A DNA stretch of 64,000 nucleotides from a virus (IMGVR_UViG_2839610755_000002), one strand, 5' to 3'; numbered from the stretch's first letter, positions 15,181 through 18,861 are shown. Made by a program: numbers and translations. Notes: generated by a model from the sequence alone, not told the origin.

Positions 15181-15621
15181 ATGGCCACACTATCTGATAC
15201 AATAAAACCGAATAAAACATATCTTGAGGCGGTACTCCGTACAGCGTTGTTAGGAAAGACAGAAGACGAATACGTTGATTTCTTCCTGTCAGGGCTACGC
15301 GGGCGATTACTGAAAAATCCCCGCCTGTACCGCAGCTATGGCCCATACTGGCCGGAAATTAAAAAATTATTACTGGAGCGCGGTTATGGTAATTTGGGTC
15401 GTCTCGTTGACCGTGACGTTCGCAAAATTTACCGTTATGACCGCCCGGCGCTGACGCTCATAGCTGCGACGCTCTACAGCCAGGAGCGTTTTGATAACGG
15501 TCAGATATACTCAGCCTGGCATTTATTGCCAGTGCCTGAAGAAGTTGACGACCAGGACTATGAGTTTGAGTCTTACGATTTGGAAGTTGAAGCCTTAGCA
15601 CAGGCTGGAGAGAAAACTTGA
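15181..15621 (+). CDS. ulx: Ulx-like protein
   Basis: 146-aa ORF directly downstream of darB and upstream of the lxc-like ORF (4-nt overlap); name by P1 synteny only. Confidence 0.5.
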   Translation: MATLSDTIKPNKTYLEAVLRTALLGKTEDEYVDFFLSGLRGRLLKNPRLYRSYGPYWPEIKKLLLERGYGNLGRLVDRDVRKIYRYDRPALTLIAATLYSQERFDNGQIYSAWHLLPVPEEVDDQDYEFESYDLEVEALAQAGEKT

Positions 15622-15866
15622 AAAAGCGATACTACACAGTAAAGCATGGGACGCTACGAGCATTACAAGAGTTTGCTGATAAGCATAACGTTGAGGTGCG
15701 CAGGGAAGGGGGAAGTAAAGCTCTGCGCATGTACCGTCCGGACGGGAAATGGCGTACGGTCGTCGATTTCAAAACTAACAGCGTTCCCCAGGGCGTCCGC
15801 GACCGGGCATTCGAAGAATGGGAGCAGATCATCATAGATAACGCATTGCTCCTGAATGCTGATTGA
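15618..15866 (+). CDS. lxc: Lxc-like small protein (C1 corepressor in P1)
   Basis: 82-aa ORF translationally coupled to the ulx-like gene; name by synteny and size. Confidence 0.5.
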   Translation: MKKRYYTVKHGTLRALQEFADKHNVEVRREGGSKALRMYRPDGKWRTVVDFKTNSVPQGVRDRAFEEWEQIIIDNALLLNAD

Positions 15867-15927
15867 TTTCCTGTTAGGTCACTTTATTTTTTAGAGTGGC
15901 CTAAATTACTCTTAATGAGGATGTGAT

Positions 15928-16878
15928 ATGAATGTTTTTATTGATACAAATCTATATTTAGAATTTTACAGGATGGGTAGAGATAAACTAGATGAGCTGG
16001 ATAAAGTATTTGCCTTACATCAATATGGTCGTTTAAAACTTTGGTTACCAGAGCTTTTAGTGAATGAGTTCTGGAGAAATCGTTCTAAAGTTCTCTCTGA
16101 AACCATAAAGGAAATAACAAAAGATTATAAGCCCGCGCTTCCCCAGATTTTTAGGCAACATGAAAAGCATTCACAATTTAATGATAAGGTTATAGAAGCA
16201 GGTAGGTTAAAGAATGAAATTATTACAGATATCCAGAAATTGTTTAAAGAGGAGGCTTTGGCTGCCGATATTGTAATTAAAAGGATTTTTGATGCAGCAT
16301 CTAAAATAGAGGCTGATGATGAAACAATAGATAAGGGGAAACTTCGATTTGATCTTGGAAACCCGCCAGGCAAAAATAAATCATATGGTGACGCAGTTAA
16401 TTGGGAATGTTTGCTAAAAGCGATACCAGACGGTGAGGATATATATATCATAACTGAAGATGGTGATTATAAAAGTGCCTTTATAAAGGATGATATGAAT
16501 GAATATTTGAAGCATGAGTGGAAAAAAAAGAAAAATTCAGAACCACATATCTATTCCCGCTTATCAGAGTTTATAGGCGAGCACTTTCCTCAAGCTAGTA
16601 ACTTGGTGGAAATGGAAGTTAATCTCACTATAGATGAATTACGACACTCTGGCAGTTTTGCTACAACACATCGAGTTGTAGCAAAATTATTAAAGCTCAC
16701 TCACTTTACACAAGAGCAAATCCTAAAAATAATTGATATTTATTTTGAAAATGATCAGGTTGGTTACATCAAAGATGATGATGATGTGAAACTTCTTGCC
16801 AGAAGACTAATATCATTAGGTGACGAGGATAAAGATCCTGAAGGGATGCTGGAGACATTCCGTGTATTTATTGATTAG
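15928..16878 (+). CDS. PIN-like nuclease-domain protein, AT-rich cargo gene at the P1 res-mod position
   Basis: ATG with GAGGA RBS; N-terminus MNVFIDTN plus spaced acidic residues (LVNEFW, GDAVNW, TEDGDY) fit a PIN-like fold; first 60 nt are about 23% GC (counted by hand), versus GC-richer flanking backbone by eye. Confidence 0.8.
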   Translation: MNVFIDTNLYLEFYRMGRDKLDELDKVFALHQYGRLKLWLPELLVNEFWRNRSKVLSETIKEITKDYKPALPQIFRQHEKHSQFNDKVIEAGRLKNEIITDIQKLFKEEALAADIVIKRIFDAASKIEADDETIDKGKLRFDLGNPPGKNKSYGDAVNWECLLKAIPDGEDIYIITEDGDYKSAFIKDDMNEYLKHEWKKKKNSEPHIYSRLSEFIGEHFPQASNLVEMEVNLTIDELRHSGSFATTHRVVAKLLKLTHFTQEQILKIIDIYFENDQVGYIKDDDDVKLLARRLISLGDEDKDPEGMLETFRVFID

Positions 16879-16884
16879 TATAAT

Positions 16885-16903
16885 GGGCGCATAGTTAGCG
16901 CCC
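16885..16903. terminator. hairpin between convergent PIN-like gene and mat-like gene
   Basis: GGGCGC-ATAGTTA-GCGCCC; weak T tract on either side. Confidence 0.45.
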
Positions 16904-16910
16904 AATAAGT

Positions 16911-17552
16911 TTAAAGATAATTATCTTTACCAGTTAATGAACCTTTAGGCACTTTCCGCGCGGCAATTTCATGAGTAGCTTGAATTATATTCACTAGGGG
17001 ACTTAGTAACGACGTATCCTGATTGGCCTCAACTTCTCCAGCCATTGCCCTGATGTAGTCGGCGCTGGCAACGTTGTTGTATTCCGTCGCAAAGCAACAT
17101 AGTAACGTCAGAACATGTTCTGTCGTTATTTCGCTCCAGTTGATGTTGAAAAATTCATCGCCTTTTTTATCGTGTTCGGAATCGAAGATGCTTTTGTGAA
17201 GGATGTATTTGCCGGATTCCTTGCGCGGTAACTTGATTGCTTTCTGGCGTTCCAGCTCCTTATAAATCTGCATTGCCTCAATTAGTACCGGCCTGCTGTT
17301 CATGAAGGGATCGCGCAACCTTACACGCTGGCCAACTCGACCAGTAATAAAGCTGTTTTCCTCTTCCACCAGCACGATAAAACCCTTTTCCTCTTTTTCT
17401 CGCAATTCGCGCAGCAGCTGGAGTTCCATATCGCGGCGGCGTTCAGGGTAGCTGGTCCGCTCAGCCATTATCAGCTCGTTATTGATCCATGCAGCAGTCA
17501 TTGACGCCGGTTTGCCGACGCTCATCGAAACAACGCATATTTTCTTATCCAT
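16911..17552 (-). CDS. mat: Mat-like protein
   Basis: Start set at MDKKICVV with GGGGG RBS (214 aa); position next to ref matches P1 cre-cra-ref-mat. Confidence 0.45.
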   Translation of the reverse strand: MDKKICVVSMSVGKPASMTAAWINNELIMAERTSYPERRRDMELQLLRELREKEEKGFIVLVEEENSFITGRVGQRVRLRDPFMNSRPVLIEAMQIYKELERQKAIKLPRKESGKYILHKSIFDSEHDKKGDEFFNINWSEITTEHVLTLLCCFATEYNNVASADYIRAMAGEVEANQDTSLLSPLVNIIQATHEIAARKVPKGSLTGKDNYL

Positions 17553-17733
17553 AGCGCCCCCTACAAAAAAGAAAAGCCACCAGCGGCGGCTTAGCAATAC
17601 AACTGAAGGTAGCGCCCGGTACTCAGACTGTGCCGTCCATGGAATATTTGAAAAGGGATCCATCCGTACCGGGCGTGTGATGATTCTGACTGAAGTCACT
17701 TGTCAGTTGTCAATCATTTATCATTAAAAATAA

Positions 17734-18549: not shown

Positions 18550-18861
18550 TTATTTCATCATGGAAGCTGTTAATGCTTTGGACCTTGCTGAACTGATTGA
18601 AAGGACATTGTTAACCTTACCCAAGAGTTCGCCAAACTCAGACATCACTTTAGCAAAACCTCGCCGTGCTTCTTCCTCGGTAGCATTCATCACGAAATGT
18701 TCAGCACTACGCATACTTTTGACAGGAAACGCAACGGATATTGAGTCAATATCAGGCATTCTATCGCTCAGCTTTACAGTGACAATGACGGCTGGCGACT
18801 GAATATTAGTGCTTACAGACAGCACTACATATTTTCCGTCGATGTTGAAATCCTTTCTCAT
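18550..18861 (-). CDS. cra: Cra-like protein
   Basis: 103-aa ORF between cre and ref on the same strand; name by P1 synteny. Confidence 0.5.
   Translation of the reverse strand: MRKDFNIDGKYVVLSVSTNIQSPAVIVTVKLSDRMPDIDSISVAFPVKSMRSAEHFVMNATEEEARRGFAKVMSEFGELLGKVNNVLSISSARSKALTASMMK

What the first reader, a model, noticed from the sequence alone, without database searches (positions are those of the whole stretch)
15867..16910. AT-rich single PIN-like gene sits where P1 carries EcoP1I res-mod: candidate undescribed single-gene defence module
In P1 as I recall it, the interval between mat and lxc/ulx-darB holds the type III R-M genes res and mod plus IS1. Here that interval is about 1 kb and holds one 316-aa ORF (15928-16878) with its own RBS and a downstream hairpin. 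The ORF is strikingly AT-rich (first 60 nt about 23% GC, counted by hand) against a visibly GC-richer backbone, which points to horizontal acquisition. Its N-terminus (MNVFIDTN) and spaced acidic residues fit a PIN-like Mg-dependent nuclease fold; the C-terminal about 130 aa match nothing I recognise. A lone nuclease-fold gene in a known phage-plasmid immunity slot is what a single-gene anti-phage or abortive-infection system looks like.
Basis: partly seen in the sequence, partly recalled or inferred. Interest (0 to 1): 0.88.

Follow-up and report, generated by a model that had tools for sequence, protein, structure and literature searches.

The report
PIN nuclease in P1 defence slot
A P1-like phage-plasmid carries, in the exact slot where phage P1 keeps its restriction system, a single foreign gene for a PIN-type nuclease fused to a small helical domain; it is very probably an anti-phage defence gene, but it has never been tested and a recent machine-learning screen had already flagged it.

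Summary
Window 15867-16910 is a 1,044-bp cassette of 34.5% GC, the lowest 1-kb GC in the window. It lies exactly between the stop codons of lxc and mat of a P1-like phage-plasmid and holds one 316-aa gene (15928-16878).

The lxc-mat slot is a cargo hotspot. It holds EcoPI res-mod, CapRel-SJ46, SIR2, DUF2971, YaaC, GNAT, EAL/HTH, or nothing. A single-gene, abortive-infection-type defence nuclease is the best reading.

It is not undescribed. A 93%-identical allele is listed as a high-scoring 'predicted novel defense gene' in DefensePredictor Table S10, and the PIN-based systems DS-3 and DS-5 are validated. The function of this gene remains untested. About a quarter of family members, but not this one, end in an SSB-like DDDIPF tip.

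The parts
15618..15866 (+). lxc (C1 modulator), left conserved flank of the slot; homology among P1-like elements ends at its stop codon
15867..16910 (.). AT-rich cargo cassette (GC 0.345) that fills the lxc-mat slot
15874..15904 (+). 13-bp-stem hairpin between the lxc stop and the PIN RBS; conserved in the second allele, where a G.U pair becomes G-C
15917..15921 (+). Shine-Dalgarno GAGGA, 6 nt upstream of the ATG
   Evidence: read from the sequence
15928..16878 (+). 316-aa PIN_12 + helical C-terminal domain gene (stop codon included)
15928..16587 (+). PIN nuclease domain, aa 1-220, with a long helical insert (aa 42-123). Invariant acidic residues: D6 (15943-15945), E47 (16066-16068), D114 (16267-16269), D155 (16390-16392), D178 (16459-16461), D180 (16465-16467). 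Hallmark loop LGNPPGKxxSYGD at aa 143-155
16591..16875 (+). C-terminal six-helix alpha-solenoid domain, aa 222-316. Its core, aa 227-298, matches the C-terminal module of PADLOC candidate PDC-S34. Conserved residues include N275, Q277, D284 and D286
16884..16904 (.). GC-rich hairpin between the convergent PIN and mat genes (terminator-like; conserved in the second allele)
16911..17663 (-). mat (maturation control), right conserved flank; homology resumes at its stop codon

Best explanation
The cassette is a self-contained, single-gene anti-phage (abortive-infection-type) defence module, carried as exchangeable cargo in the lxc-mat hotspot of P1-like phage-plasmids.

Proposed mechanism:
- The N-terminal VapC-group PIN domain is a metal-dependent endonuclease, most likely an RNase acting on tRNA, rRNA or mRNA as VapC toxins do.
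- There is no antitoxin. The fused alpha-solenoid C-terminal domain is therefore proposed to hold the enzyme inactive or to act as the sensor, and to release it when a phage-derived cue appears during superinfection.
- Activation stops translation or growth of the infected lysogen, which protects the P1 element and the clonal population.

Shown here: the fold, the conserved active-site residues, purifying selection, single-gene organisation, the cargo nature of the cassette, and defence-rich neighbourhoods.

Inferred: nuclease activity, RNA as substrate, the regulatory role of the C-terminal domain, and the defence phenotype.
For: - PIN fold and conserved acidic residues.
- dN/dS of 0.08 between the two plasmid alleles.
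- No conserved neighbour and no upstream antitoxin in 11 contexts examined. DUF4935 genes are described as monocistronic (PMC5499597).
- The slot boundaries fall exactly at the lxc and mat stop codons, with unrelated cargo in between.
- Cargo in the slot includes two experimentally proven systems, EcoPI and CapRel-SJ46 (PMC9712102). It also includes SIR2, DUF2971, YaaC, GNAT and EAL/HTH.
- Homologue neighbourhoods are defence-rich: hsdMS/Mrr/McrA-like/SymE in an E. coli-Klebsiella island; a prophage accessory end; Hhe; a type IIG RM gene with a 4-nt overlap; an AbiGi/Zeta/NERD array. A more distant DUF4935 relative lies between Eco29kI RM and SIR2/HEPN genes.
- The C-terminal module matches PADLOC candidate PDC-S34 in 59 of 59 family members.
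- DefensePredictor gives the 93%-identical allele a log-odds of 14.1.
- PIN nucleases work as defence effectors in DS-3 (single protein, no antitoxin) and DS-5 (PIN_12), where catalytic mutants lose defence (PMC13092281).
Against: - There is no experimental test of this gene or of any full-length family member.
- No known-system model matches it end to end: PADLOC gives only partial hits and NCBIfam gives none.
- Some contexts show no recognisable defence genes, for example Aeromonas.
- The C-terminal fold is a generic HEAT/ARM-like solenoid, which says nothing specific about the ligand.
- PIN domains can also cut DNA, so RNA as substrate is only an analogy.
- No convincing own sigma-70 promoter was found upstream, so expression in lysogens is assumed, for example by read-through from lxc.
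Confidence: 0.55

Rival explanations
1. It is a selfish or inter-element competition module rather than an anti-phage system. In this reading it is a toxin-like nuclease used for plasmid or prophage addiction, for exclusion of competing plasmids, or for P1-specific superinfection exclusion.
Against: No antitoxin gene and no RNA-antitoxin repeats are present (contexts), so post-segregational killing has no obvious antidote. P1-like elements already carry their own addiction functions (established knowledge of P1 phd-doc). Neighbours are mostly RM and Abi genes rather than plasmid-maintenance genes.
Confidence: 0.15
2. It serves the phage-plasmid's own life cycle or counter-defence. Examples would be a host-shut-off or RNA-processing nuclease, or an anti-defence factor, which would fit its neighbours darB and ulx (anti-restriction).
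For: It is co-directional with, and only 61 bp downstream of, the darB-ulx-lxc block. No independent promoter was predicted.
Against: It is present in only about 3% of P1-like plasmids and is replaceable by unrelated cargo or by nothing. Close homologues occur in non-phage chromosomal islands and in Bacteroidota. The other occupants of the slot are defence systems, not anti-defence systems.
Confidence: 0.1
3. The protein works like DARNA (PD-T7-3). Its C-terminal domain would be a homologue of DARNA's ssDNA-binding domain, and the PIN nuclease, in place of HEPN, would be switched on by ssDNA presented by phage SSB.
For: hmmscan matches aa 178-281 to PD-T7-3 profile positions 293-398 of 432, with E 7e-5. 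DefensePredictor's HHblits run independently lists PD-T7-3 for the sister allele, with probability 79.6 and coverage 0.16. DARNA is a nuclease followed by a HEAT-like (Pds5-like) C-terminal domain that binds ssDNA (bioRxiv 10.64898/2026.02.22.705581). Our C-terminal domain is also a HEAT-like solenoid. In 47 of 202 family members the protein ends in an SSB-like acidic DD[IL]PF tip.
Against: Only 1 of 59 family members reaches the PD-T7-3 model. The solenoid fold is generic. Our C-terminal domain is about 95 aa against about 300 aa in DARNA. The DARNA sequence could not be obtained, so its ssDNA-contact residues (F368, D372, Q403, W406) could not be aligned. The window protein itself lacks the SSB-like tip.
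Confidence: 0.12
4. It is a non-catalytic or housekeeping nucleic-acid-binding protein with no conflict role, carried along as neutral cargo.
For: The function is unknown for the whole DUF4935 family. One homologue sits among ordinary metabolic genes.
Against: All candidate catalytic acidic residues are invariant across 59 diverse sequences. Purifying selection is strong. The distribution is sporadic, accessory and borne on mobile elements.
Confidence: 0.05

Closest known systems
DS-5 (DefensePredictor, E. coli): PIN_12 protein WP_021513009.1 plus a DUF5830/AcrIF4-like partner
   Same: The nuclease domain belongs to the same Pfam family, PF16289 PIN_12. hhalign of our family against the DS-5 PIN protein gives probability 82% and E 1e-5 over aa 1-62. 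The catalytic residues of the DS-5 PIN domain are required for defence (PMC13092281).
   Different: DS-5 needs a second gene, whereas ours has no partner. The DS-5 C-terminal region is different and does not align.
DS-3 (DefensePredictor): single-protein PIN ribonuclease, WP_022645725.1
   Same: The logic is the same: one protein, a VapC-like PIN domain interrupted by a helical insertion, no antitoxin, and proposed auto-inhibition until infection.
   Different: No detectable sequence relationship: hhalign probability is 1%. In DS-3 the PIN halves sit at the two termini. Ours is a complete PIN domain (aa 1-220) followed by a separate C-terminal domain.
DARNA / PD-T7-3 (HEPN tRNase with an ssDNA-sensing helical C-terminal domain)
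   Same: Both are single-protein systems with an N-terminal RNase-type effector and a C-terminal HEAT-like helical domain. There is a weak sequence signal to the PD-T7-3 C-terminal region. DARNA acts by abortive infection through tRNA cleavage.
   Different: The effector is PIN, not HEPN. The C-terminal domain is about one third the size. Homology is seen in only 1 of 59 family members. Oligomeric state and trigger are unknown.
CapRel-SJ46 (fused toxin-antitoxin defence of Salmonella phage SJ46)
   Same: It occupies exactly the same lxc-mat slot of a P1-like element. It is a single polypeptide with an N-terminal toxin and a C-terminal auto-inhibitory sensor domain (PMC9712102).
   Different: The fold and chemistry are unrelated: a RelA/SpoT tRNA pyrophosphokinase against a PIN nuclease. 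It also lies on the opposite strand within the slot.
VapC toxins of VapBC type II toxin-antitoxin systems
   Different: There is no VapB antitoxin. The protein is 316 aa against about 130 aa, with a roughly 80-aa helical insert and an added C-terminal domain.
PDC-S34 (untested single-gene candidate in PADLOC-DB)
   Same: The C-terminal helical module (our aa 227-298) matches profile positions 299-370 of 384 in all 59 family members, with best E 3e-17.
   Different: Positions 1-298 of the PDC-S34 profile are not matched, so its N-terminal domain differs. PDC candidates are untested (bioRxiv 10.1101/2024.01.29.577857).

Membership tests
PIN domain-like superfamily, VapC group, PIN_12/DUF4935 (PF16289) | Match to the family HMM above the curated threshold | tested here: met
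   PF16289 scores 60.7 bits against a cut-off of 32, over aa 3-181 covering the whole profile. PF18476 PIN_8 scores 50.9 bits against 26.1.
PIN domain-like superfamily, VapC group, PIN_12/DUF4935 (PF16289) | PIN alpha/beta/alpha fold | tested here: met
PIN domain-like superfamily, VapC group, PIN_12/DUF4935 (PF16289) | Four to five conserved acidic active-site residues | tested here: met
   D6, E47, D114, D155, D178 and D180 are invariant in 59 sequences down to 32% identity. Their 3-D clustering was not measured.
PIN domain-like superfamily, VapC group, PIN_12/DUF4935 (PF16289) | Long helical insert after strand 2; monocistronic genes (Matelska et al. 2017) | tested here: met
   Helices at aa 42-64, 81-107 and 112-123 follow strand 37-41. 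The gene stands alone in all contexts examined.
PIN domain-like superfamily, VapC group, PIN_12/DUF4935 (PF16289) | Metal-dependent nuclease activity | not testable with these tools
   This needs biochemistry.
VapBC type II toxin-antitoxin system | Adjacent, usually upstream and overlapping, small antitoxin gene | tested here: not met
   Only 61 bp of non-coding sequence with a hairpin lies upstream, after lxc. No conserved small neighbour appears in other contexts.
DARNA / PD-T7-3 | N-terminal HEPN domain with the Rx4H motif | tested here: not met
   The N-terminus is a PIN domain. The PADLOC hit covers only profile positions 293-398.
DARNA / PD-T7-3 | Homologous ssDNA-binding C-terminal domain | tested here: inconclusive
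   The window protein gives E 7e-5, but only 1 of 59 family members hits the model. HHblits probability is 79.6 in DefensePredictor Table S10. No DARNA sequence or structure was available.
PDC-S34 (PADLOC candidate) | Full-length match to the 384-position profile | tested here: not met
   Only positions 299-370 match.
DS-5 (PIN_12 two-gene system) | Partner gene with a DUF5830/AcrIF4-like domain, required for defence | tested here: not met
   The neighbours are lxc and mat. No partner is conserved elsewhere.
DS-3 (single-protein split PIN) | Sequence homology to WP_022645725.1 | tested here: not met
   hhalign gives probability 1.1%.
Mobile-element defence hotspot (conserved flanks, exchangeable immune cargo) | Same flanking genes with mutually exclusive, unrelated cargo that includes validated defence systems | tested here: met
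   Breakpoints fall at the lxc and mat stop codons. Cargo seen in place:
- res-mod
- CapRel-SJ46
- GNAT
- SIR2
- YaaC plus a hypothetical gene
- DUF2971
- EAL plus HTH
- empty slot
- PIN (window)

The most novel reading that the evidence does not exclude
The PIN_12-plus-solenoid family would be a widespread, so far unvalidated class of single-protein immune nucleases. Its small C-terminal domain, shared with PDC-S34 and possibly distantly with DARNA, would sense phage replication intermediates. The branch whose members end in a bona fide SSB-type acidic tip (DDDIPF/DDDLPF) would use an SSB-tail decoy to plug into, or bait, proteins that bind SSB tails. That would be a trigger principle not yet described for any defence system.
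Probability: 0.15. Interest if true: 0.75.

Novelty: new variant of a known kind. Interest (0 to 1): 0.5.

Why it matters
If the gene is confirmed as a defence system, three things follow.

1. It would add a compact (about 1 kb), antitoxin-free PIN nuclease system to the set of phage-plasmid-borne immune genes circulating in E. coli, including O157:H7 and O111:H8 STEC, and in Salmonella and Klebsiella.
2. It would give a function to the DUF4935/PIN_12-plus-C-terminal-domain family, which is found from Enterobacteria to Bacteroidota.
3. It would establish the lxc-mat interval of P1-like elements as a defined one-cassette defence hotspot. That hotspot could be mined for further systems; the YaaC pair, GNAT and EAL/HTH cargos are also uncharacterised.

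The SSB-tip tails in part of the family offer a concrete, testable lead on how such sensors recognise infection.

Tried and rejected
1. Sequence searches of the PDB with the protein, the family profile and the C-terminal profile found nothing significant. The best hit was an ArsR-like Lmo1102 at E 0.4, which I treat as noise.
2. An exhaustive HMM search with the C-terminal profile was meant to find other architectures that carry the same module, such as PDC-S34-like or HEPN fusions. It returned 1,429 hits, but only the best 150 are listed, and all are the same PIN-plus-C-terminal-domain family or fragments of it.
3. tblastn of the C-terminal domain against plasmids at E up to 10 found only the 23 P1-like copies.
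4. I tried to obtain the DARNA/PD-T7-3 sequence. Only the accession RCP48690.1 is given, and no supplement is held for the DARNA preprint. The ssDNA-contact residues therefore could not be aligned.
5. The Vassallo 2022 HHpred tables contain no DUF4935 or PIN hit for PD-T7-3.
7. An RNA antitoxin or structured RNA was looked for and not found: no tandem repeats, no Rfam match, and no repeats flanking the cassette.
8. A C1-operator-like sequence upstream was considered by eye. It matches 9 of 17 positions of the consensus recalled from memory, so I dropped it.
9. I checked whether the validated DS-45 (working id '2971') is the DUF2971 cargo of this slot. This could not be resolved from the supplement.

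Full report
**What is there**

The window is a P1-like phage-plasmid read in the orientation opposite to the P1 map. The order is darB (to 15147), ulx (15181-15621), lxc (15618-15866), the target ORF (15928-16878, +), then on the minus strand mat (16911-17663), ref, c8 and cre. It is 100% identical over this region to plasmids of E. coli 2012C-4227 and of O157:H7 and O111:H8 strains.

The ORF has a GAGGA Shine-Dalgarno 6 nt upstream. A conserved 13-bp-stem hairpin lies between the lxc stop and the RBS (15874-15904, dG -17 kcal/mol, z -5.5). A GC-rich hairpin follows the stop codon (16884-16904, dG -13.7, z -3.9).

The cassette 15867-16910 has GC 0.345, against 0.484 for the whole window. It is the lowest of 1,260 sliding windows, and the first 60 nt are 23.3% GC. 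The only slips are these:
- The insertion sequence inside P1 mod is IS5, not IS1.
- The unassigned C-terminal part is about 95 aa rather than 130.

**It is a real, selected gene**

P1-like plasmids carry two alleles that are 91% identical in DNA and 93% in protein. Between them dS is 0.41 and dN is 0.03, so dN/dS is 0.08 (0.05 in the PIN part, 0.13 in the C-terminal part). Full-length homologues of 315-335 aa occur in Enterobacterales, Vibrio, Aeromonas and many Bacteroidota, at 93% down to about 33% identity. A profile of the C-terminal 131 aa finds 1,429 cluster representatives at E below 1e-3.

**The protein**

- Pfam places aa 3-181 in PIN_12 (PF16289, formerly DUF4935; 60.7 bits against a cut-off of 32) and in PIN_8.
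- An AlphaFold2 model built on a 59-sequence alignment has mean pLDDT 90.9.
- Invariant across the alignment are D6, N8, E47, R52, D114, R140, the loop P146-P147-G148-K149, G154-D155, W159, D178 and D180. This is the acidic set expected of an active PIN nuclease.
- The fold core runs to about aa 220 and has the long helical insert after strand 2 that Matelska et al. described for DUF4935. They classified the family in the VapC group, with function unknown and genes 'usually mono-cistrons' (PMC5499597).

**The C-terminal domain and known defence models**

In PADLOC-DB, aa 227-298 match the C-terminal module (positions 299-370 of 384) of the candidate PDC-S34, with E 1e-11. All 59 family members do so (best E 3e-17), as do two more distant DUF4935 proteins. 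The N-terminal 298 positions of PDC-S34 are never matched. The module is therefore shared between different N-terminal domains. The PDC candidates are untested (bioRxiv 10.1101/2024.01.29.577857).

The window protein also hits the C-terminal region of PD-T7-3, with E 7e-5 over aa 178-281. PD-T7-3 is now called DARNA. It is a HEPN tRNase whose Pds5-like helical C-terminal domain binds ssDNA presented by phage SSB (bioRxiv 10.64898/2026.02.22.705581). Only 1 of 59 family members reaches that model, and I could not obtain a DARNA sequence to align. I rate the link as inconclusive.

**The slot**

I aligned the junctions of five elements. Homology stops exactly at the lxc stop codon and resumes exactly at the mat stop codon, and the sequence in between is unrelated from one element to the next. 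Cargo seen in place between lxc and mat:
- EcoPI res-mod in P1
- nothing, with only 39 bp between the genes, in RCS47
- a GNAT gene
- the RelA/SpoT gene of Salmonella phage SJ46, which is the experimentally proven fused toxin-antitoxin defence CapRel-SJ46 (PMC9712102)
- a SIR2 protein
- a YaaC-family gene plus a small ORF
- a DUF2971 protein
- an EAL protein plus an HTH protein

PADLOC recognises the SIR2 cargo (ThsA-like/PDC-S25), the DUF2971 cargo (PDC-S31) and CapRel (PDC-S33, full length).

In an evenly spaced sample of 719 matching plasmids the commonest annotations were SIR2, DUF2971, YaaC, EAL/HTH, RelA/SpoT and type III RM. The PIN cassette occurs in 23 plasmids and in phage JL22, and in 30 of 5,426 complete E. 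coli genomes, always on plasmids. It is never found together with other cargo, because the match from lxc to mat is contiguous.

The slot is an immunity hotspot. I found no paper that describes it as such, including a 2025 survey of P1-like elements that reports RM III, dGTPase, PrrC and CapRel.

**Neighbourhoods elsewhere**

- The 64%-identical chromosomal homologue of E. coli/Klebsiella lies in an integrative island. On one side are hsdM/hsdS and an HNH gene. On the other are KlcA, RadC, CbtA/CbeA, Mrr, an McrA-like HNH gene and SymE.
- The Pantoea homologue lies at the recombinase end of a prophage.
- The Vibrio homologue lies 1.3 kb from a full-length Hhe gene.
- A metagenomic homologue overlaps the stop codon of a type IIG RM gene by 4 nt.
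- A Flavobacterium homologue sits in an array with AbiGi, Zeta toxin and NERD.
- A distant DUF4935 relative on a Paraburkholderia plasmid lies between Eco29kI RM and SIR2/ATPase/HEPN genes.
- An Aeromonas homologue has no such neighbours.
- No neighbour is conserved in any of these contexts, and none has an antitoxin-like upstream ORF. The window has no tandem repeats, no Rfam match and no flanking repeats.

**Prior knowledge**

- RefSeq annotates the gene as 'PIN domain-containing protein' or 'DUF4935'.
- DefensePredictor (Science 2026, PMC13092281) lists WP_033545800.1 in Table S10 with mean log-odds 14.1. It is labelled 'Predicted novel defense gene' and carries a weak HHblits hit to PD-T7-3. 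This accession is the 93%-identical allele annotated in NZ_CP041922.1. I did not find it among that paper's experimentally validated systems.
- That paper does validate two PIN systems. DS-3 is a single protein with no antitoxin and is 'likely auto-inhibited'. DS-5 is a PIN_12 protein plus a DUF5830/AcrIF4-like partner.
- By hhalign our family is unrelated to DS-3 (probability 1%). It shares only the N-terminal PIN_12 region with the DS-5 nuclease (probability 82%, E 1e-5).
- HEC-03 pairs an ABC ATPase with a PIN protein.

**Interpretation**

The best-supported reading is a single-gene, abortive-infection-type defence module with two parts: a VapC-like PIN endonuclease, and a fused solenoid domain that keeps it in check or switches it on. 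This parallels its slot-mate CapRel-SJ46, DS-3 and DARNA.

Shown:
- fold and conserved catalytic residues
- purifying selection
- solitary gene organisation
- exchangeable-cargo status
- defence-rich contexts

Inferred:
- nuclease activity
- RNA as target
- the sensor role of the C-terminal domain
- the phenotype itself

I put 0.55 on defence with this general mechanism. Smaller weights go to an inter-element competition or addiction role, to a P1 life-cycle or counter-defence role, and to the specific DARNA-like ssDNA/SSB trigger.

**An unexpected side observation**

Of 202 full-length family members, 47 end in an acidic linker followed by DD[IL]PF, DEIPF or DDFPF. This is the signature C-terminal tip of bacterial SSB; E. 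coli SSB ends in DDDIPF (from my own knowledge). The window protein and its enterobacterial, Vibrio and Aeromonas clade lack this tail. Together with the faint PD-T7-3 signal, it hints that parts of this family are wired to the SSB and replication interface. This is a lead, not a result.

**Verdict**

The object is an untested member of an already catalogued PIN family, and a published predictor has already flagged it as a probable defence gene. Single-protein PIN defence also has validated precedents. I rate it a new variant of a known kind, of moderate interest. The added value here is the definition of the lxc-mat hotspot and the SSB-tip lead.

Noticed in passing
Family proteins outside the window, e.g. 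P0038, P0046, P0060, P0066, P0093, P0117 (C-termini): Of 202 full-length PIN-plus-C-terminal-domain family members, 47 end in a low-complexity acidic linker followed by DD[IL]PF, DEIPF or DDFPF. This is the same motif as the C-terminal tip of bacterial SSB. The window protein's own clade lacks it (it ends ...ETFRVFID).
   Followed up: partly
window 15866/15867 and 16910/16911 (lxc stop and mat stop): The lxc-mat interval of P1-like elements is a one-cassette hotspot with breakpoints exactly at the two stop codons. Cargo lies on either strand and includes EcoPI, CapRel-SJ46, SIR2, DUF2971, YaaC plus a small ORF, GNAT, EAL plus HTH, PIN, or nothing. I found no paper that describes this slot as a hotspot.
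   Followed up: yes
window 15928-16878 compared with L017/L018 829-1779: The two PIN alleles differ by dS 0.41, while the flanking lxc and ulx genes encode identical proteins and are about 97% identical in DNA. The alleles are therefore much older than the backbone, or were acquired separately into the same slot.
   Followed up: partly
window 16911-17663 (mat): mat comes in two annotated lengths: 753 nt here, in P1 and in the DUF2971-bearing plasmid, and 642 nt in RCS47, SJ46 and the plasmids with GNAT, SIR2 and YaaC cargo. Its 3' end diverges far more between cargo types than the rest of the backbone. This suggests that recombination tracts extend into mat.
   Followed up: no
window 15874-15904: A 13-bp-stem hairpin lies directly after the lxc stop and before the PIN RBS. 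It is conserved in the second allele, where a G.U pair becomes G-C. It could be the lxc terminator or a translational or transcriptional control element for the PIN gene. No convincing sigma-70 promoter was predicted upstream of the gene.
   Followed up: partly
L020 1-20981 (Flavobacterium MAG, GCA_036386895.1): The PIN homologue sits in a run of about 25 co-directional small ORFs separated by regular gaps of about 150-300 bp. The layout resembles an integron cassette array. The run also holds NERD, DUF3800, CAT, Zeta-toxin and AbiGi genes.
   Followed up: no
L019 7287-10990: The start of a tail-bearing homologue (P0043) overlaps the stop of a type IIG restriction-methylase gene by 4 nt, which suggests co-transcription with an RM enzyme.
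   Followed up: no
Also, the 104-aa ORF next to cre in the window (18550-18861, minus strand) corresponds to c8, not cra.
   Followed up: yes
P0180 (428 aa, N-terminally truncated metagenomic protein): This family member carries an extra C-terminal extension of about 140 aa after the solenoid domain. It may be a further domain fusion or a read-through.
   Followed up: no
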